From Hydrurus foetidus (lineage: Eukaryota): a stretch of DNA of 20,000 nt. Positions within the stretch are counted from its first letter, which is position 1. Every line of letters begins with the position of its first letter. The notes beneath the pieces were generated by a model that saw nothing but the letters and a program-made list of their open reading frames with translations, did not search any database and was not told the origin of the DNA. This document shows positions 560-20,000 of the stretch, one piece after another. Both the position numbers and the translations under genes were made by a program. Location of the stretch: contig UYFQ01000596.1 of NCBI GenBank assembly GCA_900617105.1, forward strand, positions 46,367 to 66,366, in the 5' to 3' direction.

Positions 560-1423
560 TTTGACGGGGGAAAAGACTTCGGTAAACGATTCGGGAAGAT
601 GACGATGCTGGACAGTTGCTGTAAATGTTGAACCATGAAGTTTCTATGTCTAGTGTGCGACGCGCAATGGAATGTGACGATCGATAATGAACATCGAGGG
701 AGAATCGAGAGTCAGAGATTGGGATCGTGGGTTTGATTCCGTATCAGGAATTTTTGATTAATTGTATGGTACAAGATCCCTGACTTGGAATTAGGTCCGA
801 GGTCCTCACACACATTACATGTTATACTATCTCTCAAACGACGGAGACAAAAATAAAAATTTCTGTCTCACCAAAGTAGCCAAATTTGTTCTGCAATTTG
901 CCCTAAAGGGTTAGAAGCCAAGCTATCCGTATCCAAACATGTTTTGGAAGATATTTTTGGAGCTAGAACTCGGCTCAGTTGAAGACAAATGCTTTATAAA
1001 AAATCGTTTCAGTCTTCGATATTCAGTAACGCTCCGATGCCAGCTACTGTGTACCACACATACCGCTTATATAATCGATAAGAGCAAAATCTGTCTTAAT
1101 CTTGTACCACATTTGATTTATATCACAAACTGCCGATTATAAAATTGGCCAGTCAAAAAGGAAAAGCCTAACCTGACGTAAGTAGCGCATTTCAGACTAG
1201 CCTGGAGCCAGTAAGCATGCATTGGGTAGGCTGGGAGGGCTTAAATTAACAATATCCCTAAGTTTCGCGAATCTCAAAAAGTTTCGTGGTTTGGCCGTGA
1301 GGGGGGGGGGGTACGCGATTATTTTAGATAATACTCCGCCGCCCAGGGTACAAGATCCTAGTCTAATCCGGACAGAACTGGTCTGAAACTTGAAACTCTC
1401 TATCGAGTTACAGTAGCAGTTCC

Positions 1424-1814
1424 TCTTCGAATAAGTCTGCCTTTCGGATCCTGGATCCAGTCAGAGCACCTGGTTGATAGCAGTGGTTCGTTCAGAACAC
1501 ACTTTGCTTTCAGCTAGTCGACCAAGTCGTTCCAACAGCTCACTCAAGTGTAGGTATAATGGCTCACAGCCATATAGTCTCTTTTAATTAGAAGTGCTCA
1601 TCATGTCAAAACAAAGCAGTTCATGGCTAGCTATACTAGCTATAGTTGACTGTTCACAGTCATCATCAGTTGCAACTTCCAGTACAGTTCGAGTGATGGT
1701 CTTGAGTCTGAAAACGCTACCCTCGCTCCTCCGCTTGGGCTTAGATGATATTACCCCAAAGGGATTTCCCCCAAGGGGATCGTCCCCGTAGGGATAGCTA
1801 TGCTATATCCAACA
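1424..1814 (-). repeat. E1 3' LTR (391 bp; sense ends TGTTGG...TTCGAAGA)
   Basis: Identical to 6913-7303 except at 1428 and 1445; bounded by the TSD and the PPT. Confidence 0.95.
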
Positions 1815-1824
1815 CACCCCTAAT
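1815..1824 (-). other. E1 polypurine tract (ATTAGGGGTG)
   Basis: G-rich tract abutting the TGTTGG start of the 3' LTR; E3 has the same GGGGTG ending. Confidence 0.8.
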
Positions 1825-1978: not shown

Positions 1979-4900
1979 TTAATTTCCTAAAATTTTCTTC
2001 ACCATCTTGGAAAAAACTGTTCCTTGCAATGGTTTTGTGAAGTAATCAGACGTCATATCCTCGGTTGGAACGTAGACAATGTTTACAGCACCGATGCGGA
2101 TGTAGTCTGATATCCAGAATTTTCGCACCTCAATGAACCGGGTGGTTTCTGCGGTAGACCGACCTTTTGTAAGCAGCGTGATGCATGATTGATTGTCTTG
2201 TTCCAGCCTCACTGGAATCTTGCCGTGTCCTTGGTAAGCAATAAATCCTGCAAGCCAGAGCGGAATGTTCATGCCGTCAGATACTGCAATGATCTCAGAC
2301 TCTGTACTTGACTTGGAATTTAGCTTCTGGACCTTGGAACTCGAAATGAAATTCCCCACCCCTAATGTGACACACATTCCTGAGGTTGATTTCATCAAAT
2401 CACGGTTGGCAAATGCAGCATCAATGGATACTGTTACTGTCGGGGGCAAAGTACACCCCAGTCGTAATGGCTTGTCTCTGGTAGCCCTCAGATAGCATAT
2501 GAGCCTATCGAGTTTCTTGTCGTCTTCAATTGTTGGTGCCTTTACACGTTTGCAAAGTTCACCCAACACTAATACAATGTCTGGGCGAGTTCGGTTCCCC
2601 AGGTAGAGTGCTGTAGCAACGTCGGTATGGAAGGTTTTAGCATCTTTCTCACTTAGGAATTCGCAGTCCAAGGTCCGCTCAAATAGGTGTGGGGCACCCG
2701 GTGATGATGGGTTCCCGATGAGCTTCATACCTCGTTCAGCATGGCTCTTTTCCCTTGATGAGATCAGATCTTGAATCATTCCAATCTGCGTGACGTTCAC
2801 AAATCCTGGCTCATTGTAATCCCACATGCATCCTAGGTACGGTAGAACTCGCTCTTGAGTGGTACGAAATTGACCGTACGTTCTCAGCAAAATTTGCTCC
2901 ATGTCAAGAACCGCTTTCTTGTCCACACACGTCATCTTTAAGTCATCTACGTAGACTAGGATCGTGAATTGGTTGCCTTTGACGTCCTTATTAAAGACGC
3001 AAATATCGCGCGGGTTAGCCGTGAAACCATTGGACCGTAAAGTTCCGGCTATTTCGTTATACCAGAGTTTGGCGGACTCGATACACCCGTAAAGTGCTTT
3101 GTCTAGTCTCACTACTAGGCCTCCATTGTGTCTTCTGTAACGTAAGAAAGAGATGTCTTGTTTGATGATTGCGTCGGCCACATTCTTATCAATATACATA
3201 TGGAGTATTTTATCCGGTTTTTCCATCGGCATATCAGCGTTGAGGTATGCGGACCCAACGTCCCCGACCATGACGAAACGGTTTTCTACAGCAGCAATCT
3301 GTGCAACTGTAAAGATGGCAGCTATGCTCGCTGTTGGTGATTCAACTTCATCTGGTGCATAGTCCTCTCTAACTTGAGCACGCCCGTCCACACAGAACCG
3401 CGCCTTGACCTTGTCGATTTGGCGATCACCATCAGAGTTTACCGTTGGAAGGTATTTCTCCACAACATTCATGTTTGAACGCAGTATCTTCTGCTTCTGT
3501 GTAGGCGACAGTTGTTCCATGTGCACCCCCGAAAATGTCCCCTTTGCAAGTAGTGATTTGACCTCTGACTCAATTGCTGCAGTAGCCTTGTCCGGAAAAA
3601 GTTTCAGTGCCCGAGTAACTGTCATAAATGACCACTCACCCCTAATTCCTTCTTTCTGCGTTGGAATAGGTAGTTTGTCGGCTACTAAGTTGAGTCGGTC
3701 TGGTGGCTTTCTGGTTCTCGTTGATTTCTGGCGCATTTCAACAGGTGCACTGGGTACGTACGTACGCACAGTGGTAGTAGGTGGTGCCGCTGGTTGCTCC
3801 TCCGGTACTGCTTCAAATGTAGTTTCTGGTCCGGATACTTCGTCAGAAGCTGGGATGGTATGGTTTGTGTCGACCGCTGATTCCATTTCACCCCGAATCT
3901 CAATTTGGTCTTGAGTAATTTGAGGTTCCATCACGGTATCAAGCGTGTCGGTCTCATCCGGGAACACCGGTAAAATTGGAGGTGTGTGTCGGAACTGGAT
4001 AGTAGGCTCCTCATCTGAAGGTGTATCCATTATGACCACATCATCAACTGCATCTCCAGTGATGTCTCTATCATGGAATGTGAATGTTGGTTCTTTTGAT
4101 GTGTGTATTTTATTCTTCGATGCCCACCCGTTTACAGTGGTAATGACGAGCGGAGGTATCGGTAACACCACGTAGTGGTTGGCTGATATGACACTCCTTG
4201 TGTCAATGCGCATGAAGGTATGAGTACCTGTTCCATTCATCTTTGGCTCTAGGTATAGGCATCCAATGGTTCGTGGATCCATGCTGTTGCTAAGCACCCT
4301 GCCGGTGACTTGGCAGTATGAGCCGAATGGAGGTCCGATATCTTTTTTCGTGTCAGCCTTTCTGCCGAAGAATGCTTCGAAAGGAGAAATCCTATCTGTT
4401 CTTGTTGATGAGGGAAAGAGCAAAAGCTTCTTCGCCGAGCTCATCACAAGGTGAGGCATGAGTATATCCGGTAGCAAGTATGGTAGACTGAAGATGGTAC
4501 ACCGGATGGTCTCCTTTAAGTGCCTGATCATTCTTTCAATAACATGATCGTGTTGCCCTGGACCAACGGCAATCACCTCTACTCCCATGGCATTCATGTC
4601 ATTGACTAGTGCCGCAATGCCACGTTCATTATCACTTGTAAATTTCACGATGGAAATGCGTCGGGACCCGATGGTACCGAACATGCGCCTGATACTCTGC
4701 CTGAGTACCGGTGTCGTGAGGTTTTCAGTGCATGCTACCAAAACGATTCCCAATGGGTGAGTAATCGATACTAAGTAGGGCTGTCGATTTACAAACATGA
4801 TATCGCAATGCATGTGTTGGTCGTCGAAGTGACGGGCCGTCGTAGGTAGTTGAGGTGGCGTCATAGGCCTCAGCCTGGTAGTGCGTCCTTTGAGTGCAGC

Positions 4901-6886
4901 AGCGTTTGCTCCCCAAATTTCTGTGGCACGCGTGACATCTTCAGGTAAGATGTCGCAGTTTAGAAATGTCCCAGCTCTCAACGCGGAAATGAATTTCTGA
5001 TCTGGTGGGAATCCCAAACTCGCTTGCAAACGGCGTGCATCGATGCTTCTCTGAACTTCGCGTTTCGAGAATTTGGCTTCGTTGGCTTCCGTTGTGGCAA
5101 GTTTTGTAGAGTATAATATGTTCATAGATGATGTTTCTATCACCACGGAGTGAGCATATGCAGTTCTGCGCTCTGCGGCGTCAGAATATCTCGGCTCTGG
5201 AGGCGTTGCCAAATCGTTGACATATAGCCCTCCACGATGTTGAAATTTGTAGGTATTCTGATCAGTATGAAGCAAAAATGCATCTTGATCTATTGTAGAA
5301 CCCTGGCGAAACTCCCAGTTGTGTCCTTGCAGCAGACAATCCGATGCCGAGATGATGGAGAGTCCAGCACGTGGGTCGAAGTGAACGATGCCAATGTCGC
5401 GAAGGTTTGCTGTTTTAGTTACAGTGAGAGAACCATGCAAGCCATTGAATACAGTTGGAGTGCATGTCACAATGTTACTCAGCACATCTGCACATGTGAT
5501 GATGGTGCCTGTAGCTCCTGTGTCGAAGATGGCCTCCGATGTACTTCGTTGATTGATGTTACGGTTGGCGGAAAAATCGGTCCGAGGACCGAGGGTTGCG
5601 AGTTTCACCGGTGAGGTGGTGTAGCACACACTACAGTTCCTTTCGCCATATTGATTCTTGTCATCCTCTTGATCCCACATTTGGCCAAAAGCAGTGTAGA
5701 CATCATCTGAAGCACTGGAGTCAACTCCGTCAGTTTGTCTCCTGGCCAAATATGATATTTGTGGGGCTGAAGGGGGCTCTCCAGCGGCCTTCTTTCTGCA
5801 CTCACTAGCACGATGCCCAGCCTTTCCACAGTGGTAACACGTTCCACTGAATTTACCCTCCTTCACATCTTTAGCAAACGTGACTTTAGGTTCCTTGATT
5901 TTCGCTGGGTTAATTTTCTTGGCTTTTTCTTTGACGGGTGATTTCTCTCCCTTTGGGGACCCACCCGGTTTGACGGGGTTCTTCGCTGCAAGTGCCGTAT
6001 GGGGGTCACTATCGCTGATTGCAATGCGCTACCCTTTGTCCCACGATGGAATCTAGTTGCTCCATTAATTGCCTCCACCAGAGTCTTCGGATAGATGTCA
6101 ATTGCGGTGCACTCCAGGGAATTACTGAGGTAGTTTTTGTAGTCGTGGTAGACCTGCACGGTACTACTCAGACCATCAATGAACCTCATAGATTGTTGTT
6201 TTGCATCTGGAATTTGTGCTGCTGGAACTCCTGTTGCAGCGAGTCGATCAAAAGCTTCACCGCACGACGTCCGTACGTTACGATGTCTTCGCCCGTACTC
6301 ATGGTGAGTGTATACCAATCCCGTAGGGCCTGGGACCGCTCTAATTCCTGATTCCCATCACATCTTGATGTGACTACTGACTTGATTACATCAAGTAGTC
6401 CAAGTGGGTCGTCAAATTTGACAGCGATGAAGTTTGCCTCCACTACCAGAATTGCATTGAGTGATGGTGAACACATCGATCGAATCAGTCGATAAGCTGA
6501 TCTACGGTCCTCCATTTGCTTTCTCCTCATCTTTGTCACGACCGCTCTGTCGTTATTCAGGTCTGCCATTATTAACTTGGCTCGAAATCCTTTTGGATCA
6601 GTGATTTCGTCCAACGCCTCCAATGCAGTGAAGTCTGGTTCCGAAAATAGGTACACCTCGTAGGCCGGTTTTAGGGTCAGCATCATAGGGTCGGGACAGA
6701 TCGACTCGAGATCCTGAAAGTTGACTCTCATGTACTCTTTCAGTCTCTGAATGTTATCGTCCCATTCTTTCCACCCGTTGTGAGTGATCTCAGGGAGACT
6801 CTCTGGCCTCACACCATCTCCAGGCGTGGTTTTTCGGCCTTCTCAGATTTGGATTGGGCAGCGCCCTTCTCGCCTTGCTTGCTCAT
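1979..6886 (-). CDS. E1 Gag-Pol polyprotein, with three apparent 1-nt frameshifts in gag
   Basis: ATG at 6886; zinc knuckle CYHCGKAGHRASEC; protease IFDTGAT; integrase D-D-E (HCDIMF/TSDNE/IERMIR); RT KALYG and YVDD; RNase H IDAAF/QDNQS/SDYFTKPL. The frame breaks at homopolymers 6830-6834, 6250-6253 and 6001-6005. Confidence 0.93.
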
Positions 6887-6901
6887 TCTGAGCAGCTCAC
6901 G

Positions 6902-6912
6902 ACTTCTAATTA
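6902..6912 (-). other. E1 primer-binding-site position: TAATTAGAAGT, non-tRNA-like and complementary to its own LTR
   Basis: Directly follows the 5' LTR; does not start with TGG; exact reverse complement of LTR sense sequence ACTTCTAATTA (7084-7074). Confidence 0.8.
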
Positions 6913-7303
6913 TCTTGGAATAAGTCTGCCTTTTGGATCCTGGATCCAGTCAGAGCACCTGGTTGATAGCAGTGGTTCGTTCAGAACACACTTTGCTTTC
7001 AGCTAGTCGACCAAGTCGTTCCAACAGCTCACTCAAGTGTAGGTATAATGGCTCACAGCCATATAGTCTCTTTTAATTAGAAGTGCTCATCATGTCAAAA
7101 CAAAGCAGTTCATGGCTAGCTATACTAGCTATAGTTGACTGTTCACAGTCATCATCAGTTGCAACTTCCAGTACAGTTCGAGTGATGGTCTTGAGTCTGA
7201 AAACGCTACCCTCGCTCCTCCGCTTGGGCTTAGATGATATTACCCCAAAGGGATTTCCCCCAAGGGGATCGTCCCCGTAGGGATAGCTATGCTATATCCA
7301 ACA
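6913..7303 (-). repeat. E1 5' LTR (391 bp; sense ends TGTTGG...TTCCAAGA)
   Basis: Direct repeat of 1424-1814, followed on the + strand by TSD GTTCC. Confidence 0.95.
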
Positions 7304-7528
7304 GTTCCCGTTGGCAATTACCGTGTCGAAATTTCCGTGATTCTGGTTGTTGTCAAAATCCTAATCTCACTTCAAAATGGCAAAAGAGTAGGCACTCGAC
7401 GGTCGACGGTATATGCTCCAGATTGGAGATGATCTCCAGCTCCAATTCCAGTTCAATTTCATGCTGTGCACTTAGGAGTAGAGAGTTACAAGAAAATCTA
7501 ATGAAATTGATTTGCGCTTGAAGTACTG

Positions 7529-8479
7529 ATGCACAACCGTGTTGCTATCAGCGAAGATAAAATCCTTGATGCTTATCCCGTGTCTAGGGTCACACCTGCA
7601 GCTCTTCATCATGATATGTTCGCACTCAATTTTAGAAATAAAAATCCCATAATTCTCGACGGTGCAGCGCTGCCATGGTTCGGAATCTGTGGCTGTACCG
7701 ACGATCCGGCAGAAAAAGTGATTGAGAACCTCGAGGAATGTGAAGCTGAAATGTTACTAGCTCTGGATGGAAAGAATTTCCTGCAGCGTTCACTGTGCAG
7801 CAGCAGAGAAGTAAATCTCAAAGAGGAAACGAGGAAAATCTTTTCGGAACATGGCATCTTTCAATCCCGCGAAAATCTATCTGTGGAATCGGTACCACAG
7901 CGGAAGTATATTCGCATTTACTTTGACTCGCACACGAAGCTGCTTCACAGAATTGATCTATCTTACTTAAAATCATTGGCCACAAATGCCTCTCCTACCA
8001 CAACCTCGATTGTCACGGAGCCCAGGGAAAACAAGTCTGATTGTATTGTGCCATTTAAACTGAGGAATATCGGTTTGTGGATGAGCAGTGAAGGATGCGT
8101 GACACCTCTCCATTTCGATAAATGTCACGGTTTTCTCGCTCAGATAATTGGCATCAAAACCTTTTTGTTGGCATCAAGTGCAGAGTCTGACTTGTTGCGA
8201 TACTGGAGGGAAGAAAGCGATGGTTACTACGAGAACGGAACCACTAGCTCTGTCAATCTTGGGCTCTGGCTCGAAGGGAATATCAATGAGAGGGTAAAAC
8301 ACCCGCTTATTGAAGATGTGGCGTGGTTTATTGCAAAACTCTGTCCTGGTGACATACTCTACACACCTCCAGGCTGGTGGCACTATGTGATCAGTGAGAC
8401 AGCATCTGCATCTATACTAATCCCTTTTGATCCGCAGCCATCTACTGAGACTCTGCCGAGGAACGTCCTGCTTTCCTGA
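7529..8479 (+). CDS. JmjC/cupin-like 2-oxoglutarate Fe(II) oxygenase (JMJD5/FIH-like)
   Basis: 316-aa ORF with LWM, the TPLHFD HxD motif, QIIGIKTF, and LCPGDILYTPPGWWHYV carrying the distal His. Start codon uncertain. Confidence 0.85.
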   Translation: MHNRVAISEDKILDAYPVSRVTPAALHHDMFALNFRNKNPIILDGAALPWFGICGCTDDPAEKVIENLEECEAEMLLALDGKNFLQRSLCSSREVNLKEETRKIFSEHGIFQSRENLSVESVPQRKYIRIYFDSHTKLLHRIDLSYLKSLATNASPTTTSIVTEPRENKSDCIVPFKLRNIGLWMSSEGCVTPLHFDKCHGFLAQIIGIKTFLLASSAESDLLRYWREESDGYYENGTTSSVNLGLWLEGNINERVKHPLIEDVAWFIAKLCPGDILYTPPGWWHYVISETASASILIPFDPQPSTETLPRNVLLS

Positions 8480-9434
8480 AGATGATGCGCATCGCATTCA
8501 TCAGCGATACTTGAGAGGAGGCAAATGCATGGCAGTTCAACTATTTTTCAACTATTTTTCAGTTCTTATGATGAAATTTTCTTTTAAGAAATTGCCGCAT
8601 TTGCGAGAAACGTAAGCGCAAGGAAAATCGTGGCATGCTTCGGGATTTGTCCTGAGACAGTTATTTGTCATTTTAATTTTTTGTGTTCGTATTGAAGGGG
8701 TATTTACCAATGATGGTGCTCGACAGACTAGATCTTCTAAAAATGATATCAGCTGTTGGTCCGAGGCATCGACGTTGCTGGACGGCGCACGTTGAGAGGA
8801 TGTCAGATTACGCCCATTGTCGTGATTGAAGTGCCATGAGTGGAAATTTAAAGTCTCATTTGTGATGGAGAAAAATAATGGAGGATACTGCTGAACGTGA
8901 TATGGAAAGTTTTATAAATCCTGCTGGGAAGACAGCAGTTCTTCTAATCTTACATGTCACACCTTGAAAGTCATCTGCCTTATCAACTGTTATCTATTAA
9001 TCTTTGATGCAATCCACTACACGGATTAGACGGCAGCCGCGATTGGAAGAACCCGCGGATTCTGAAAGCAGGAATCCGAATTGCAGGGGAATCCGAAATA
9101 AAGCTGTTAATCTCGAGCTTGATCGGATCTGCAGCATTGTTCTGCAGACACAGTTTTCAGTTTTCAGTATAAAGTAATACCGTATAGTTATCCGTATCGT
9201 TTTCTATTATCAGAGAGACCAGTACTTACGCCTAAAATACATGAAAAAGTTCGAAAAATCGCATGAAAAAGCACTTTCAGAACATAAATAGTGCTTTGTT
9301 ATCTGTCAATCCAATTGCAGTTATCCCATAAAGGGAAAAGCTCCATTACGACTAATCAAATCTCGGGCTCCATTTCTGGTTTCCTCAACGTGAAGCTGAA
9401 GGTTTCGAGACAAGATAGCATCTGTAGACACAGG

Positions 9435-10925
9435 ATGGAAAACATCGGTCATCATGAGACTAAAAAAATTATCCGTTCAAGTAGCGAGAAGGAGATGCTT
9501 GTGCAACCTTCTTCTGGTAACCGTTTTTCCGAAATGAAGTTGCTGGGCTCCGGTACGTTTGGTGAGGTATGGAAAGGTTTCGATGGTAAACTCAAATGTT
9601 GGGTGGCTATTAAGACATTTCAGGAGGTGTCCTCGGACAATTTAGGAATCAATATGATGGTTATCCGAGAGATTTCGCTCCTGAGGAAATTGAACCATCC
9701 CAATATAATGAGGATGTTAGATGTGCTCATCGGGGGAAAAGTTGACAGCAAAGGCCTCTTAATAGTGATGGTGAGGGGAAATGCCTTGGAATGATTGTAT
9801 GGAACTTTCTAATCTTAATGGCTAACGGCAGGAACTAGCAGAGATGGACCTTCACGACTATCAGCGCAAATTTGGAAAGTTTCTCTGCCTAACCAAAGTA
9901 GAATTCATAATCAGGCAAGTTCTGGAAGGATGCTCCTACCTGCACAGTAACCATGTTATGCACAGGGACTTGAAGCCAGACAACATCCTGATATGTAGTG
10001 CTACCGGCATGACAAGAGTCGCTGATTTCGGATACGCTCGCACCTTCTCGAACATCAACTCTGCCGCTGCATGCTCATCCCGGTACAGCTGGCCTATCCA
10101 GGTAACTTTCTCCTTGATATGAGAATCATCCTGATCACTGGTCGCCATCACTACCCTAAAATCATCCTTCAGGCTCCATCTTACAAGGCCCCTGAGGTCT
10201 TGCTGGGGTGCGATTGTTACACATCAGCGGTAGACGTATGGTCTATCGGGTTAGTCCGTGTTCCTGTCCACCGTCACATTTAGCTTCATCAATTCATCTA
10301 ATCTCTTCGGAACCATTGTCATCAGGTGTATGTTTTGTGAGTTGCTATCTGGGGGACGGAAGCTTTTTGGTGCTGCGGGAGTTGCTCCTTGGGTGGAGCC
10401 AGAAAGACGCAGCAATCGGAAAAGGGGGCGGCGTGAAGACTCTGTCGTGGTGATGAGTCAGCCAAATCAGATTTACAGACTCTCCAGTGGTGTGCAGATT
10501 GATTCCGTGTCGTCCAGTTGTGAAAGGAATGGAACGCTTGTCTCATCACTCACAGCGATATTCAAGGTGCGTTGGGGGCATATTTATTCATTCTGACTGT
10601 GCAGTTCATTGACACAAGACAGAAAACATTTTTGTGACAGATATTCGGCCCACTGAGTGACAGCCACGCGCCTGCTCTGCGTCACCTGTCCTTGTTTAGG
10701 AAGTTTGCTGCTGCAAAGAGTGATGTATGTAGTGGACAAGAGAAGGACGTTGTCCGTGTCGCTAGGGACATTTTTTATGATTTGGTTGAACCGCATATGC
10801 GCGATGCCGCTGCGATAAGGCTACTCCTTCAATTACTCTGTGTTGATCCGGTCAGGCGCGTCACCTGTTCCTCGGCATTAAACAATTGTTTTTTTAACTC
10901 TGCAACTTGGTCTGCGGCCGAGTGA
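9435..10925 (+). CDS. Divergent cyclin-dependent kinase-like Ser/Thr kinase; exons 9435-9770, 9832-10101, 10173-10249, 10326-10566, 10641-10925
   Basis: LGSGTFGEV, VAIK, GINMMVIREISLL, HRDLKPDN, ADFG, YKAPE, VDVWSIGC and DPVRRVT motifs join in frame across four GT-AG introns of 61-76 nt; CTAAC branch point in intron 1. Confidence 0.85.
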
Positions 10926-12388: not shown

Positions 12389-12706
12389 TGTTGGAGTATC
12401 CGGAGAAAATACACTGCTGTAGTTGTATAGTATATGTATGGATCCTGACGGTCAGCGGTATGCGTCCTGGGGATGTGGACCGTGGACCGTTAGTTGTTTG
12501 GGCTCGTGGAGCCGTCCATTCATCTATCTTCAACATGGATAGAACATGTGCAATTGCCTTGATATGTAAAGCTTCGTTGCCGTCTTGATTGATGCCGGTG
12601 CACAAGTTTAATTATCAAGTAATTACACAATACAAGTCTATTTTACGAGCCTTGGGTCACCGGTCACAAGAGTCACTAAGCATCCGGAAGTCGAGGATTC
12701 CCAACA
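12389..12706 (+). repeat. E2 5' LTR (318 bp; TGTTGG...CCAACA)
   Basis: Terminal inverted repeats TGTTGGAGTATCC / GGATTCCCAACA; ends 26 nt before the gag ATG, as in E1. The second copy is not in the window. Confidence 0.8.
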
Positions 12707-12716
12707 TAATTAAACT
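12707..12716 (+). other. E2 primer-binding-site position: TAATTAAACT, complementary to its own LTR
   Basis: Exact reverse complement of AGTTTAATTA at 12605-12614; no TGG start. Confidence 0.78.
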
Positions 12717-12732
12717 AGATCAGCGCATCGAG

Positions 12733-14991
12733 ATGCCGCCGAAGAAACAAGAAGAACCAAAATCAGGTGCAGAGCAGTGCATGCTGAGAATCGGACGTTA
12801 CAACAACGTGGTGCAATGGAGGGAAGACATGCAGAACGAGGCATGCGGCCTGTACGGGATGACCGGCACGTTCTTCACCACCAACAAAAGCTACGTCCAC
12901 CCGTATCCTCGCGAGGAGGATTACAATCCCACCTTTCAAACAGTGGAAGTCGATATTCCGACGGCGGGTACCGAAAATGAAGACGAGGAAGACGAGTCCG
13001 TAGACCTCGAAAATGTCATGATCGGGCCACAGCTCCCACCAGCGCCTCCTGCCGTGTACTCCGAGGCACTCATCGACAAGCTGCGAGCCAATGCGTTCGA
13101 AGGACGCCGCAAGGCAGTCGAAACGCAAAAAGTCGATGAGCAAAAGCTCTTTCCACTGATGTGGTCGAGAATGTCGACCGGGTCCAAATCCAAGGTGCGC
13201 GAGGAGCCAGGCTTCGAAGCGGCTCGCCTCAGACTGGACAGTGTAAAACTGTGGGAGTACATTCGAAGAAGTCACCTAACTCACATTTACGGTGAAGACG
13301 ATTCGATGCGAGCGATGAATGTGCACGAGCAGACCATTAGGTACAACTACCTCAGACAGGGTGAGCGTGAGGTAATCGGCGATTTTAAGACACGCTTCGA
13401 TAACCAGGTATTGGCCAACAGAGGTGTTGGTATGACCGAAGTTGAAGAACCGATTAGGGCAATCGACTTCCTCAGTAAGTTAGATCCGAAAAGGTATACC
13501 ATGTTGACTCTAATGCGTAACAACGCCGTACAAAACCTGCCGAATAGTTTCCCTTCTACCTTAGCCGGAGCCTACAGGGTAGCGTCAGCTCGGAGGGTAG
13601 CGTCCTGGACCAGCTCGGGCGGAGGAGTCCCCCTCGGCGCCGAGCAACATTCCGCATTCCTGACGGATTCTTTGATAGGTACAAAGGAAAAAGTCGCGGG
13701 AAAAGGATCGAAGGGGAAGACAGCTGGAACGAAAAAGAAGTCATCGTCAGTGATATGCTTCGTATGCGGAAAGACAGGACATTTCGCAAGAGACTGTGAA
13801 CAGCGCAAAGATGGAGAGCATGCGCTGCTCACTAATGTTGAAGAGGATGTCGAAGAAGATGACGAGAGCATCGAGGCAGATTTTGTCACGACAGAAGAAG
13901 TCGCACTGTTCACACAAAGTCATGTGCTGCTGGACAATCAGGCCTCGGTGAACATCTTTTGTAACCCGGCGCTGCTCACAGACATTAGAAGATCGCAGCA
14001 TGCAATCCTCCTCAATGGAGTCCAGTCAGGTGCGAAGGGTGTCCGAGTCAATCAGGAAGGAAACTTCGGCGACATCGGACCAGTCTACTTCAGTCGCGGA
14101 GCGACCGCCAATATACTATCATTCGCGGCGATGGCAGACAGCGGAGCAGACATAAGCTACAACCATGAGAGTGGGTGCTTCACCCTACGACCAGCCGGCA
14201 GCAGGACAACGTACAGCTTCAGTAGACAGACCCTTCCCGGATCGACAGGGAGATTCTACGTATGGGACGCGAGCAGCGTGGCGAGCGTTTGACCTCCGGA
14301 AGAGGTGCTTGTGACGACTGTCCAAGACAACATGGCACGCTTCACGAAGCGCGAGATTGCATCGGTAGCAGCAGCCAGAGAGCTGCTAGCTCGAATGGGT
14401 TACCCTCCAGTCGAGATGGCAATTGCAATGATCAGGGGAGGGAACAACTTCAGTGTCTCCGAGGGAGATTTCAGAAACGCGCATACGATCTGGGGTAAAT
14501 GTCTCGCCAGCCTCAGAGGCAAGACCCACAAGAAATCGTCACCAGTGGCTGACATTTCACTGACACCTGCACCAGCGCAGCAGCAGCAAGTGTTGAGTGT
14601 AGACATAATGTATCTGGAGACAACAGCGATACTTATCGCCGTTTCTACCCCGTTGGATATGACCCTCGCTGTGAGCCTTATCCGACTCGACACTGAGAAG
14701 ACCTCGCGAGCTGCTGCAATAGTGAAACCTGAATTGAACGAAATGATATCTGTTCTCAAATCCAGGAACTTCTTGGTGCAAGTGATCATGTCTGACGGAG
14801 AAGGTGCTATCGGGAAAATGAGGGTTGATTTGCTGGCACTGGGGATAGAGGTAGATGTCAGCGCAGCTGGCGGACACGTAGCCAGAATCGAACGACGAAT
14901 TCAGATGATGAAGGAGCGAGCACGTGCTCACCTCAACGGTAGAATCCCATTCACTCCAACAGAACTCTGCCTAACATATCTAGCTCTATAC
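12733..14991 (+). pseudogene. E2 Gag-PR-IN (partial), with an in-frame TGA at 14290-14292 and truncation by E3
   Basis: MPPKKQEE start; CFVCGKTGHFARDC; protease LLDNQAS; integrase SVDIMY/MSDGE/IERRIQ. ORFs 12589 and 14305 share a frame. Confidence 0.85.
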
Positions 14992-15270
14992 TGTTGGAAA
15001 TCTGGGCGATTTACACGGAATTTCTTCCGAGTTCCCAAACGATCCCTGCACTTCCGACTGCTAGCAACGCTTGCTCAAAAGAGAAGAAGACGTTCTATTC
15101 GGTAAGTTGGATTAAACGACAGTGACATGCTGTCGATTACATCTAGCTAGCATAACATGAGTGCGAGGGTTGCGGTCAATGCTATCGCTGAATGTACGTA
15201 CACCCGTGCATGAAAACAATCATACATCACGCAGGGTACCGGATCCTAGTCTAATCCGGATATCACAACA
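14992..15270 (-). repeat. E3 3' LTR (279 bp; sense TGTTGTG...TTTCCAACA)
   Basis: TGTTG/CAACA termini; preceded by PPT ATGGGGGTG; E2 integrase similarity ends exactly at its left boundary. Confidence 0.8.
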
Positions 15271-15279
15271 CACCCCCAT
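15271..15279 (-). other. E3 polypurine tract (ATGGGGGTG)
   Basis: Abuts the LTR start; same GGGGTG ending as the E1 PPT. Confidence 0.75.
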
Positions 15280-15780
15280 GATGGTTATTGTTTGAATAAG
15301 TGAATATGTTAATTAGCATATGCTTATATAGTATACTTATTGGTTATTGTTCATAATGTTTCACACAACACTCAGATAGGGAACTTAGTGTTAGGGTATG
15401 GTAAACAGTAAATTTTCTTAAAAATATTTTTCACGGAATTTTTAATATTGACAAGTTGCGTCGTGATATGGTGTAAAATAAAACATGGGTGGTTGGATTA
15501 GTAAATGGGTATTACTCGAGAAAAACTATTTCTAAACCGTCAAAAAAGCCTCAGCTGGTGACCGGTCTCGAGTTCGATCCAACCGATGTTGGTGCCCTTA
15601 AATCCGCTAAAACGTCGACATTCGATGTCGCAAAAGCGGTGCATCGATGTCCCTCGCGGTCCTATCAAACAAATGTTGATTTAAAGCGAAATCAGATTTT
15701 TATTTTTATTTTGTAATTTATCTGGAAAAAGCGCTATAAGTGGGTAAGTCAAAATCAATAAATAACTCCCCTGAATTTCT

Positions 15781-18700
15781 TTATACATTGAGCACTTGGT
15801 CGCGTAGCTCTTGGAATAGCTTCCCCTGCAGTGGCTTGGTCAGCAAATCTGCAATCATTTCTTTAGTACTCTTGTAGGTTACAATAATATGGTCTGATTT
15901 AATTCGGTCATGCAGGAAGAAAAACTTGATGTCTATGTGTCTAGTTCTTTCACTGTTGGACCTACCGTTCTTAACTAACTGAATTGTGGATAGGTTATCT
16001 TGGTAAATTAAAGCTGGACCTACCTCATACTCTTGATGGATAAGGAAATTCCTAGTCCATAAAACCTGATTACCTGCTTCAGTCATAGCTACTAGTTCTG
16101 CCTCTGTGCTAGACGTAGTATTTAATTTCTGTGTGGAACTCTTACCATATATTGCTCCCTTACCTAGTGTTATAATACAGCCAGTGTGACTCTTCTTATC
16201 TGCATGTACAGCGTATGATGCATCTATATAGGCTATAACCTTAACCGGAGTATCTACCTCTAGGGTCAGCGGCATAGCTCTGGTCTCTCTGATATACCGT
16301 ATAGTATGCGCTAACTTATTCCAGTCGTCGGTTCTAGGTTCTAAGACTCTTTTAGTTAGATATGCTATACATGTCAGTATGTCTGGTCTGGTTCTCTTAC
16401 TTAAATATAACAACTTAGCTGTTAGTGAGTGGAATCTCTCACGTTCTTTATCTTTCAATAAAGGACTGTTAAGATCGATCTTGAATAGATTATCGTCGGC
16501 AGGTGTTCTAGACACCCCCACAATCTCTATGCAATCGTCTAACAAGTCTTTTATGAAACCTTCCATGGATATGACAACTCTGCCTAACTGCTCAAAGTTA
16601 AAAGTCATACCTATATAATTCAACACTCTGCCTCTACTCTTAGTCAAGCCTGGGTATAGTTTTTCTATCTCTGAAATTATACTATCTATACGCTTCTCAT
16701 CCCTACTGCTGATCATCATATCGTCAACATGGATAACTAAAGTAGTCTGAGTGGAATCTAGCTCAGTCCTATTGAATACACATATGTCTGATGGATTTAC
16801 CTTATAGCCTAACTGTGTTAAGTCTGATGATATTTTATCGTACCATAACTTAGCTGACTCTACACATCCATATAATGCTTTCTTAAGCTTAACTACTACT
16901 GTTCCTTTCTCATTTACATACTTCTGATAAGACTTGTCAATGCTAACTAATATGTTAGTCAAATATTTATTCAGTCTCATCAGCACTGCATGGTCACCGT
17001 CTAGTGGCATATCACTGTTGAGGAATGCACCAGGAAAATCGATCGTAGCGACCGCTCGATTTTCACTAGCAGCAATTGCAGCAACAATAAATACGCTAGT
17101 GGTGCTAACAGTTGGTGATGAACCGTTATCATATATATTTCTATCTTGTAAGTGACCTCCTGCTACAAGTCTAGATTTTAGCTTATCAAATTTACCATCT
17201 GCTGTATACTTATCTTTTAAAAACATACTGCTGGTTATGATACTTTTCCTCTGATTGTAACTAAGACTGTTGAGGTGAACTGCCTCCCACACATTCTTAT
17301 CACACATCTGTTGTAACTCTTTTTAATGGAATCTACGGCTATCTCGCCTAATTTCTGTACTCCTTCTGTTACGGTCATGTTCATCATGTACTTACACATA
17401 ACTGAATCTTTGTAGCTAGGTATACTTAAACCTACTAATCTCTTATTCCATCTACCTGGCTGATGGTTTCTAGCACTACGTCTGGGTTGTTTATCTAGAA
17501 TTTCCTCTGACTTGCTATTTTCTGTGGTGGGGGTATCTACCTCATCATCACTGTCTACACCAAATATATCATTCATTAATGCATCGGGGTCAGTTGGTGT
17601 ATCGTCATACACTACATCCTCTCCTTCATTAACGTATATATCATTTGGTATGTATTCTGTTAATTGTTCGAACTCTGATTCGTAAGCTACATCAGAATTG
17701 CCATCGTATGAGTCAAAATTATTTGCTATCTCATGATGCACAAATTCGTCTTCTGTAGGGTAACTATACGGTGTTATCATGTCAGGTGTCTGCAACTCAA
17801 ATTCATCGTTGGAGTAATCATTTCCATCGTCTTCGAGGATTTGATTACTCTGTTCGAAAATAGGTTGCTTGACATTCACTGACATATTTAATTTCCTCTC
17901 AGATGCTAACTTATCGAGGTAACTGATCACATCATCTGTCATAGGTAGGCTAGTAGCCTTTGTCCTCTTACTACTTTTAAGTTAGCTAACAGCAGATAAT
18001 ACCATGAACCTTCTAGGTTGCCTGCACTAACTAATGCTATTGCTGCCTGTGATCTGGGTTTAGTCGAGTTGTCCACGGAATCGGTATGTACTTGTACGTA
18101 ATCACCGAAACCGTGTTTCAACTCCTTATCTACGTTAATCTTTCTACCGTATAATTTCTCTCTGGGGCTGACGTAAGCTACACTGTTTCTAGTTGGTACT
18201 AAATTTAATCTGTTCACAACATATCTAAGTAACCAACTTTCTAGTAGCTCACTCAGTGAAAAAGGTACCGTGTTGATGATGGCACGAACACGTTCCTTGA
18301 TCACTCTGATCTTCCTCTCAACTACAGCTACTGCTTCTCCTGCTCCAGTACTGTCTAATATAATACCTAGTGCGGCTAGCTTACTCTCAAAACTTATAGT
18401 GTTAACTGCCGACTCTCCGTCTATTCTTATCATAGTTATCTTAAATCCATACTTAGTAATGTGATGTATGTTGCTCTCTAAGTTCATCCATAAGGAAGAC
18501 TTGTTTTTACGTGAGAGTTTACATATCATCACATATTCTAAGGGATTTGTAACAGTGACTAGATAGGGTATCGAGTTCACAAACATCAAATCTATGTACA
18601 TAACCTGGTTCAGGAACTGCCTATCTACAACTGGCATCTCTTCCTCTAACTCAGTTTTGTGACTAGTTGTTTTCCCCTTAAGGGAACCCAAATCTGGTCC

Positions 18701-20000
18701 AAAAATATCTAATGCTCTAACTACATCTTGTGCTGTTATGTCACTCTTATCTAATTTCCCTGACCTATTAATTTAATTAACTGTCCTGGGCTGGCGTAAC
18801 CTAACTTTCTCTGATACTCTCTAGCTAACTCTGCTGACTTAACTTGTCTAGCTGTATACAGTTTCTTCTTATCCTTAACTGTCATGACCATGATCGATTT
18901 ATCGAACGATACATTCTTGTAACTGACATTTCTGTCTAAGTCGCATAGATATATGTTCGTAGACTGATCATGGACAAATCTATATACAGGTCCTAACTTA
19001 ATCATCCTAACTTTGTAACAATCCTGGTCACTGTCATAGCTAACTGACTCGCTCGAGCTGACTATGTTACCGAAGGATAATATATTTGCTATACAATTGC
19101 TATCGTAGTAAACTGTTCCGAAGTCCGTCTCGCCACACTCCGTGATTATCAAGGGTTCCCCCTGAGGGTTCACTCCATTAATAATCATCGGGGTAGCGGA
19201 CGGCATAATACTATAAAATAAATCTCCACTACAAAATACTGACTCTGCTGCACATGTATCTAACAACACTTGTCTCTCTGTGAATGTGGAACTGTGTGTA
19301 TATACATTCGCACTAAAAATCACAGGGTCACCCCCACAATTTTTACTGTTCAGTGGACAAAAATTCTCCAATCTGCATGCTTTATCTAACAATGGCACAA
19401 ACGCAGGGTAACCGGTCGACGTTGCAAATACGTCATGCAGTCCGGTTTCCCCACACGGAACATTTACATCCTTAGCTAGTGAATCAGGTAAAGAAACATA
19501 TAAGGGACTTACTTTTCCGAGGAAGGGTGACGCGCAGGTGCGTTCTTCCTCGGGGGCTTCTTACACTCGTACCCATAGTGGCCCTCCTCCCCGCAGTTGT
19601 TACAGGCTCCGTAACGGGTACCGTACTCCTGTACGGCACCTCCTCTCTCTCTCTGCGGGGTGGCCTCCCTATCCCTATAGGGAGTGCCTGCCCTCGCTGT
19701 ACTCTCGCTGCCGGGGGTATCGTACCCTCCCTTCTCAGCTCCCTGACTACCTCCGCGGCCTCTGCCGCCTCTCCCACCGGAACCCGCTCTCCCACCCCGA
19801 CTGGCCGCGAAAACGTTTCGCTTCTCCGAGTTCGGGGGAGCTCCTCCGTGGACGGGCCTTCCCATAAGGAAGTTGGCCGCGTCCTGGTTGGCATCGGCCA
19901 TGGTCTGCGGCCATGACCGAACCTTATTTTTAAACGTATTTATATATTCTGAATAGTTTGAATTCAGTCCAGTTATAAATAATACAGAATAGAACTCATC
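15781..20000 (-). CDS. E3 Gag-Pol, 5' partial, in five frame segments
   Basis: The gag frame is open to 20000; RGG tract and CNNCGEEGHYGYEC; protease LLDTCAA; integrase YIDLMF/RIDGE/VERKIR; RT KALYG and HVDD; RNase H YIDASY/QDNLS/ADLLTKPL. Breaks near 19513-19516, 18755-18757, 17968-17969 and 17320-17324. Confidence 0.9.

What the first reader, a model, noticed from the sequence alone, without database searches (positions are those of the whole stretch)
6902..7084. Candidate self-primed (tRNA-independent) Ty1/copia element: the E1 PBS pairs with its own LTR
Seen: the 11 nt after the 5' LTR (TAATTAGAAGT, 6912-6902) lack the TGG of a tRNA PBS and perfectly complement LTR sequence ACTTCTAATTA (7084-7074). 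The 3' end of that 11-mer would sit exactly at the LTR boundary, as a minus-strand primer must. Its first A lies in an initiator-like CACTTC context. Rough chance level is 391/4^11, about 1e-4 at uniform base composition. Established: this geometry is the self-priming mechanism of fission yeast Tf1, a Ty3/gypsy element whose first 11 transcript nt anneal to the PBS and are cleaved off in an RNase H-dependent step; copia elements normally use tRNA or half-tRNA primers. Inference: a copia lineage uses a convergent self-priming system. I recall palindrome-based self-priming being suggested for some diatom copia elements, so novelty needs a literature check.
Basis: partly seen in the sequence, partly recalled or inferred. 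Interest (0 to 1): 0.93.

Follow-up and report, generated by a model that had tools for sequence, protein, structure and literature searches.

The report
Self-priming copia retrotransposon in freshwater eukaryote
A recently inserted copia-type jumping gene has, where such elements usually bind a host tRNA, 11 bases that pair with its own terminal repeat; two neighbouring elements and nearly all distant relatives examined keep such a pairing with different letters, so the group likely starts copying itself from the front end of its own RNA, a mechanism shown in yeast Tf1 and already predicted for one plant copia lineage.

Summary
Observation confirmed. E1 is a young copia element (391-nt LTRs differing at 2 sites, GGAAC target duplication). 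Its first 11 nt after the 5' LTR perfectly complement LTR 7084-7074 (chance about 1e-4). The pairing is a lineage trait. A second copia in the window (E2) has a different self-matching PBS. For a third (E3) I named two candidate PBSs in advance from its LTR, and a public contig matched one exactly. Among 35 relatives (about 31-39% RT-RNase H identity), 32 have a perfect match of at least 10 nt to their own LTR, against 2 of 1332 cross pairs. The tract starts at a C|A initiator-like step in 32 of 34 (background 17%). Best reading: Tf1-like self-priming (0.85); start site and cleavage are untested. Tf1's flanking stems were not found. This scan already reported the trait on other DNA, mostly diatoms (31 notes, at least 6 genomes). 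E1 is only 34% identical to named diatom RTs. Real and testable, but not new in kind.

The parts
6913..7303 (-). E1 5' LTR, 391 nt, TGTTGGA...TTCCAAGA (non-canonical GA end)
   Evidence: boundary loose ends at 6913 and 7303
7074..7084 (-). predicted self-primer ACTTCTAATTA, starting at a C|A initiator-like step (predicted transcript nt 1-11)
   Evidence: complementarity shown; start site inferred from C|A at the tract start in 32 of 34 elements
6902..6912 (-). E1 primer binding site TAATTAGAAGT, flush with the LTR end
   Evidence: duplex present in the MFE fold of 7084-6860
6901..6910 (-). PBS nt 3-12, also complementary to the tRNA-Arg(UCU) anticodon arm (rival reading)
6029..6886 (-). gag region, ATG at 6886; this copy is frameshifted (three frames against intact relatives)
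1979..6028 (-). open frame, 1349 aa: zinc knuckle, then protease (DTG), integrase-type D,D,E (read by eye), RT (YVDD) and RNase H motifs, i.e. copia order
   Evidence: Pfam RVT_2 E 2e-17 and zf-CCHC; motif order
1815..1821 (-). polypurine tract AGGGGTG
1424..1814 (-). E1 3' LTR (second copy of the primer tract at 1595-1585)
7304..7308 (-). target site duplication GGAAC, 5' side
1419..1423 (-). target site duplication GGAAC, 3' side
12389..12706 (+). E2 5' LTR, 318 nt, TGTTGG...CCCAACA; tract AGTTTAATTA at 12605-12614
   Evidence: (pair I17)
12707..12716 (+). E2 PBS TAATTAAACT, 10-nt perfect complement of its own LTR tract
   Evidence: chance 6.7e-4
14992..15270 (-). E3 3' LTR, 279 nt; tract ACTGTCGTTTA at 15123-15113 is the complement of the 11 nt that follow this LTR in a family contig
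   Evidence: prediction written; contig loose end in run X5; coordinates

Best explanation
E1 is a copia-type LTR retrotransposon whose primer site pairs with its own LTR, and it likely primes minus-strand DNA synthesis with the predicted first 11 bases of its own RNA instead of a tRNA. Shown: the element's anatomy, the flush 11-bp complementarity, and its retention with changed letters across the lineage. Inferred steps: (1) Pol II starts at the C|A step at 7084. (2) Transcript nt 1-11 fold onto the PBS, closing a 161-nt loop. (3) A cut after nt 11, by analogy with Tf1 probably made by the element's RNase H, frees a 3' OH exactly at the LTR end. (4) RT makes about 161 nt of strong-stop DNA, which jumps to the 3' LTR copy. 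(5) Plus-strand synthesis would copy the primer back into the PBS, which would let tract and PBS drift together and could explain why all 37 PBS 10-mers differ. This copy has a frameshifted gag and would need proteins from intact family members.
For: Exact 11-bp match at offset 0, p about 1.3e-4. E2 has a different PBS with a 10-bp match to its own LTR. E3: one of two candidates written in advance was matched exactly, 11 nt starting at C|A, by a contig of run X5 (depth 182); the majority loose end in run X7 resembles it. Relatives: 32 of 35 have a perfect match of at least 10 nt to their own LTR, against 2 of 1332 cross pairs and 0 of 87 shifted controls at 8 nt or more. All 37 PBS 10-mers are distinct and none has TGG in its first 6 nt. 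With G-U pairs allowed, the own LTR is the best partner in 33 of 37, and L075 then gives a 15-bp duplex. C|A at the tract start in 32 of 34 against 17% background, consensus about YTC|ATTYT. The duplex is in the MFE fold in 30 of 34. RT-RNase H identity of the relatives to E1 is only about 31-39%. E1, E2 and E3 meet the self-primer criterion of Neumann 2019 (at least 10 bp, 0-5 nt from the LTR).
Against: No RNA evidence: all runs laid were contigs, so the start site and cleavage are unseen. E1's PBS nt 3-12 also fit tRNA-Arg(UCU). The two flanking duplexes that Tf1 needs (pretzel) are not conserved: U5-end pairing 16 of 34 against 423 of 680 shuffles; own-versus-other rank 0.1 or better in 5 of 34 (leader) and 1 of 34 (U5 end). 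L052 shows no self-match (5 nt) and L016 only 9 nt. By duplex energy, E2's own LTR is beaten by 7 of 36 others and L059's by 9 of 36. In 21 of the 32 C|A cases the predicted +1 A itself is unpaired. No DNA was obtained for E1's closest relatives (60-77% identity), so covariation within its own subclade is untested. The absence of listed variants in the tract among family contigs is not significant (about 0.5 by chance). For 29 of 35 relatives the junction was set with the stem position in view, which is partly circular.
Confidence: 0.85

Rival explanations
1. E1 is primed, only or additionally, by the 5' half of tRNA-Arg(UCU) pairing with PBS nt 3-12 two bases from the LTR, as for Candida elements whose PBS matches an internal region of that tRNA. 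The LTR tract would then be a relic or a competitor.
For: PBS nt 3-12 are a perfect 10-nt complement of GACTTCTAAT, the anticodon arm in 30 of 30 tRNA-Arg(TCT) genes checked (viral copies, not the host's tRNA). Internal tRNA-Arg(UCU) PBSs exist in Candida (PMC4139406, passages), and half-tRNA primers exist in plant copia (PMC6317226).
Against: E2, E3 and all 35 relatives have other PBS letters. The tRNA base after the 10-mer is C in the 20 commonest contexts, so PBS nt 2 would not pair, whereas the self tract pairs all 11. The lineage's A-Y-T-Y start and common ...TAA/...TTA tract end already fix most letters of this 10-mer, so a chance match in one of 37 elements is plausible (inference).
Confidence: 0.07
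2. The duplex is a conserved RNA structure of the 5' leader (packaging, dimerisation, translation or transcription control), and priming uses something else.
For: Covariation shows selection on pairing, not its purpose. Fungal GalEa copia have a conserved hairpin at the PBS position with no fitting priming model (PMC5445492). Tf1-type flanking stems are absent.
Against: The 3' arm starts at or within 2 nt of the LTR end, where a primer's 3' end must lie, and the 5' arm starts at an initiator-like step. No TGG-type PBS in any of 37.
Confidence: 0.06
3. A chance match of AT-rich sequence that also serves as TATA-like or poly(A) signal (TAATTAAAAG / ATTAAA at 7079-7070).
For: The tract overlaps such motifs (seen in the sequence; the motif names are recalled). 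If TAATTAAAAG were the TATA box, the tract would lie upstream of the start site.
Against: p about 1e-4 for E1 alone; 34 of 37 own matches against 2 of 1332 cross matches; the E3 prediction was met.
Confidence: 0.02

Closest known systems
Tf1/Tf2 of Schizosaccharomyces pombe and the Tf1/sushi group (Ty3/gypsy chromoviruses), self-primed reverse transcription
   Same: An 11-nt tract in the 5' LTR complementary to a PBS next to the LTR. In Tf1 the first 11 bases pair with the PBS and RNase H cuts between bases 11 and 12 (PMC7175516, passage).
   Different: E1 has copia domain order and an RVT_2-type RT; no chromodomain hit. The two flanking duplexes of the Tf1 pretzel (bioRxiv 10.1101/2022.12.06.519325, passage) are not detectably conserved. 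The predicted primer is 10-17 nt across the lineage, 15 in 19 of 32.
Plant Ty1/copia TAR lineage (Houba, Osr-1), predicted self-priming
   Same: Copia superfamily; at least 10 bp of PBS-to-LTR complementarity in place of a tRNA PBS; predicted from sequence (PMC6317226).
   Different: The 120 best protein hits of E1 (down to 36% identity) are almost all unnamed metagenome proteins, none with a plant name. Its RT carries ALYGC[IV][EQ]S rather than the LYGLKQ motif recalled for plant copia. Whether the two share an origin was not tested.
Diatom copia elements (CoDi groups, Maumus et al. 2009, PMC2806351)
   Same: A starred 17-row subclade of the self-complementary relatives is 53-68% identical to RTs named from Nitzschia inconspicua and Fragilaria crotonensis. 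The nearest Atlas clusters of E1's RT are eukaryotic, commonest Bacillariophyta or Rhodophyta on 1-3 records.
   Different: E1 itself is only 34% identical to those diatom RTs and sits on a separate branch. The passages read give no PBS analysis, and no CoDi reference sequence was available to assign a group.
Hemivirus-type copia primed by tRNA halves (Candida elements with an internal tRNA-Arg(UCU) PBS; Osser, Bianca)
   Same: No TGG; E1's PBS nt 3-12 complement the tRNA-Arg(UCU) anticodon arm.
   Different: The PBS is not conserved across the lineage and tracks each element's own LTR instead.
Fungal GalEa copia with a Conserved Hairpin Site (PMC5445492)
   Same: Copia without a tRNA PBS; a short palindrome just after the LTR (CTAATTAGT there, TAATTA in E1 and E2).
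   Different: The authors found no complementary LTR tract. Here the LTR tract is the defining feature.

Membership tests
Ty1/copia (Pseudoviridae) | pol order protease-integrase-RT-RNase H | tested here: met
   Motif order DTG 169, D/D/E 408-497, YVDD 1026, RNase H motifs 1202-1327. The integrase was read by eye; Pfam gave no integrase hit.
Ty1/copia (Pseudoviridae) | copia-type RT (Pfam RVT_2) | tested here: met
   E 2.3e-17, 63.9 bits against cut-off 31.6; 15 of 15 close relatives
Ty1/copia (Pseudoviridae) | two LTRs, PPT, 5-bp target duplication | tested here: met
Ty1/copia (Pseudoviridae) | TG...CA LTR termini | tested here: not met
   E1 LTRs read TG...GA. Common but not universal: PMC2806351 reports it in 23 of 26 diatom families; 30 of 37 junctions here end in CA.
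self-primed LTR elements (mechanism) | at least 10 bp PBS-to-LTR complement starting 0-5 nt after the 5' LTR | tested here: met
   E1 11, E2 10, E3 11 nt; 32 of 35 relatives; criterion from PMC6317226
self-primed LTR elements (mechanism) | the tract is the 5' end of the transcript | tested here: inconclusive
   C|A initiator-like step at the tract start in 32 of 34; no raw RNA reads among the runs found
self-primed LTR elements (mechanism) | RNase H-dependent cut after the primer; strong-stop DNA joined to it | not testable with these tools
   needs biochemistry; RNase H motifs are present
Tf1/sushi group | Ty3/gypsy domain order and chromodomain | tested here: not met
   copia order, no chromodomain hit
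Tf1/sushi group | three-duplex pretzel around the PBS | tested here: not met
   Flanking stems no better than shuffles or cross pairs across 34 elements. E1's own MFE fold has a stem next to the PBS, ranking only 0.18-0.21 against other LTRs.
plant TAR lineage | RT/RH/INT clusters with TAR references | not tested
   no TAR reference sequence was returned by any search; an outgroup search found nothing
half-tRNA-primed copia | PBS complementary to a host tRNA 5' half and conserved in the lineage | tested here: inconclusive
   E1 matches a generic tRNA-Arg(UCU) arm, but the PBS is not conserved. Host tRNAs unavailable (no genome; none in the window).
diatom CoDi groups | RT clusters with CoDi references | tested here: inconclusive
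   34% identity to named diatom RTs, separate branch in an unrooted quick tree; no CoDi references available

The most novel reading that the evidence does not exclude
E1-E3 belong to a large, old copia lineage of aquatic microbial eukaryotes, spanning diatoms and other hosts, that abandoned tRNA priming wholesale and independently of both Tf1 and plant TAR. It uses an initiator-anchored 10-17-nt self-primer without the Tf1 pretzel, and therefore a different rule for recognising and cutting the duplex.
Probability: 0.45. Interest if true: 0.7.

Novelty: new variant of a known kind. Interest (0 to 1): 0.5.

Why it matters
Self-priming is described as experimentally shown for the gypsy element Tf1; for copia, the papers I saw offer only a sequence-based prediction in one plant lineage. 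A deep aquatic copia lineage in which PBS and LTR tract covary makes copia self-priming directly testable, with exact predictions (start at 7084, cut after 7074, 161-nt strong-stop DNA). If true, tRNA independence is widespread in LTR elements. That bears on whether self- or tRNA-priming is ancestral (discussed in PMC3601003), and such elements would escape host control through tRNA fragments (inference). Practically, annotation tools that require a tRNA PBS would likely under-call these elements (inference). The score is moderate because the mechanism is known, it was already proposed for copia, and this scan has noted the trait many times.

Tried and rejected
No host genome is held, so there was no copy census and no host tRNA search; the window has no tRNA gene. 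RT-motif scans of viral contigs were empty, so the tree has no outgroup; monophyly and convergence are untested, and the tree is the quick version. The Tf1 pretzel was tested and not supported. Within-family conservation of the tract is uninformative: none of 26 listed LTR variants falls in it, chance about 0.5, and 19 rows were not shown. Runs X19 and X20 had small word shares (0.13, 0.05) and are contigs, so they say nothing about expression or start site. The Atlas search with the neighbouring JmjC protein did not identify the host. The bacterial promoter scan was irrelevant and empty. The PDB search gave only weak zinc-knuckle and Gag hits. Papers not held: Lin & Levin 1997 and 1998, Levin 1995 and 1996; Tf1 details come from reviews. 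Nine searches listed no paper describing self-priming in diatom or other protist copia. They cover open-access text only; the Maumus 2009 supplement was unreadable, Neumann's supplements were not opened, and Repbase/GyDB entries could not be seen. Searches of earlier scan notes by place and by sequence were empty.

Full report
Anatomy. The finding lies at the 5' end of a minus-strand LTR element, E1. Its LTRs are 7303-6913 and 1814-1424, 391 nt each with two differences, flanked by the duplication GGAAC; a purine tract AGGGGTG precedes the 3' LTR. The frame 6028-1979 (1349 aa) carries a zinc knuckle and Pfam RVT_2, with protease, integrase-type, RT and RNase H motifs in copia order (integrase read by eye, no Pfam hit). 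Gag starts at 6886 and is spread over three frames in this copy compared with intact 1,628-1,641-aa relatives. Both LTRs end in AAGA rather than CA. The boundary is fixed by the duplication and by eight contigs with loose ends at 6913. Holders of the sequence are mostly freshwater and sediment metagenomes plus one coded organism; the host group was not established.

Observation. TAATTAGAAGT (6912-6902) follows the LTR with no gap and complements ACTTCTAATTA (7084-7074) for exactly 11 nt, with chance 1.3e-4. Folding 7084-6860 gives this duplex in both the MFE and the centroid structure (z -2.1).

Two more tests inside the window. E2 (+ strand; LTR 12389-12706; best stored protein hits 22-33% identical) has a different PBS, TAATTAAACT, with a perfect 10-nt complement at 12605-12614. 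E3 has only its 3' LTR (15270-14992) in the window. Before looking, I noted two candidate tracts that start at a C|A step. Laying public contigs on that LTR end gave one contig in run X5 (depth 182) whose loose end equals the tract at 15123-15113 for exactly 11 nt. The majority loose end of 16 contigs in X7 resembles it, a variant subfamily in X1 and X5 has the same first 10 nt, and the other loose ends look like flanks. So three families in one window each pair with their own LTR through different letters.

Relatives. Forty-three held only about 640 nt or less. Of the 78 longer loci, 10 were off-frame non-RT hits and 31 had no LTR-PBS junction (14 inspected by eye, among them L031, whose LTR end is not followed by a gag frame that I could see; 17 judged too short from coordinates). 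L033 and L037 were left out because their LTR end was ambiguous (9- and 12-bp stems), and 35 were scored. An unguided search for the longest perfect stem put its 3' arm at an LTR-end-like motif in 28 of them. For 29 the junction was then set with that stem in view, which is partly circular; for 6 it was set from the end motif. Results: 32 of 35 (34 of 37 with E1 and E2) match their own LTR for 10-16 nt. L016 gives 9, L075 7 and L052 5. Cross pairs reach 10 nt in 2 of 1332, and shifted controls never exceed 7 (n = 87). All 37 first 10-mers differ and none has TGG in its first six bases. With G-U pairs allowed, the own LTR is the best partner in 33 of 37; L075 forms 15 pairs and L052 stays negative. 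The tract starts within one base of a C|A step in 32 of 34 (background 17%), 65-244 nt before the LTR end, consensus about YTC|ATTYT, which resembles an initiator (recalled). These loci are about 31-39% identical to E1 over RT-RNase H. A starred 17-row subclade is 53-68% identical to RTs named from Nitzschia and Fragilaria, whereas E1 is 34% identical and on a separate branch. The tree is quick, unrooted and without outgroup.

Results against. The Tf1 flanking duplexes are not conserved (16 of 34 against 423 of 680 shuffles; cross-pair ranks near chance). The predicted +1 A is unpaired in 21 of 32. E1's PBS nt 3-12 also complement GACTTCTAAT, the anticodon arm in 30 of 30 tRNA-Arg(TCT) genes checked out of 119 loci, and Candida elements have PBSs matching an internal region of this tRNA (PMC4139406, passages). 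I rate this rival low because the relatives have other PBS letters, the next tRNA base (C) would not pair, and lineage-wide constraints on the tract ends already supply most of those letters. It is not excluded for E1 without host tRNAs and close relatives. There is no RNA-level evidence.

Mechanism. Shown: geometry and covariation. Inferred: start at 7084, fold-back, a cut after nt 11 (RNase H-dependent in Tf1, PMC7175516 passage), 161-nt strong-stop DNA, first strand transfer to the 3' LTR, and copying of the primer into the PBS, which would explain the fast joint drift. Confidence 0.85.

What is known. Tf1/sushi self-priming (PMC4600332, PMC7175516 and bioRxiv 10.1101/2022.12.06.519325; passages) is the working model, but E1 is not a member of that group. 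Self-priming is already predicted for plant copia TAR, Houba and Osr-1 (PMC6317226, passages). Fungal GalEa have a PBS-position hairpin without an LTR partner (PMC5445492, passages). Maumus 2009 (PMC2806351, passages; supplement unreadable) and PMC5776459 (passages) give no PBS analysis; PMC3601003 (passages) speculates that hairpin priming is ancestral. Nine searches of open-access text listed no description for diatom or other protist copia. This scan's own notes report the same trait on other DNA, 31 notes in at least 6 genomes, 7 of the 8 shown about diatom-type copia. My reading was written before I saw them; they are unchecked and are not counted as support.

Verdict. A real feature, most likely a self-primer, in a copia branch outside the diatom subclade. 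New variant of a known kind; interest 0.5.

Noticed in passing
window 6913-6916 and 1424-1427: Both E1 LTRs end in AAGA instead of CA, flush with the 5-bp duplication; no family variant at this base was listed. Four relatives were called with AA ends, so this lineage's integrase may tolerate non-CA ends.
   Followed up: partly
window 12389-20000: Nested elements: E2 (+ strand) breaks off in its integrase region at 14991, where the 3' LTR of E3 (- strand, 15270-14992) begins. E3 is frameshifted in several places and its 5' end lies outside the window.
   Followed up: partly
window 14992-15110: E3's LTR has far higher summed contig depth in run X6 than E1's LTR (about 7e5 against 2e5), which may mean a much larger family; summed depth is not a copy number.
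   Followed up: no
window 7036-7102: More distant contigs in runs X1, X4 and X19 match E1's LTR only over about 7036-7102, a conserved island around the predicted start site, primer tract and ATTAAA motif.
   Followed up: partly
window 1344-1372: A 29-nt piece 93% identical to the start of E3's LTR lies about 50 nt from E1's 3' end, possibly a remnant of an E3-like LTR.
   Followed up: no
window 7511-8479 and 9288-9794: Host genes next to E1: a JmjC/cupin protein (Pfam Cupin_8, E 8e-19) whose open frame begins about 200 nt from the insertion, and the first part of a protein kinase.
   Followed up: partly
L008, L010, L015, L018, L022, L046, L063, L065, L067, L068, L070, L078, L079, just after the PBS: The diatom-type subclade seems to carry a short extra frame of about 100 codons between the PBS and gag (seen by eye), absent from E1 and E2, whose gag ATG lies 27 nt after the LTR.
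   Followed up: no
L075 oriented, about 290 nt before the LTR end: Self-pairing of 15 bp that includes G-U pairs and is missed by perfect-match searches; DNA-level searches will undercount self-primers.
   Followed up: yes
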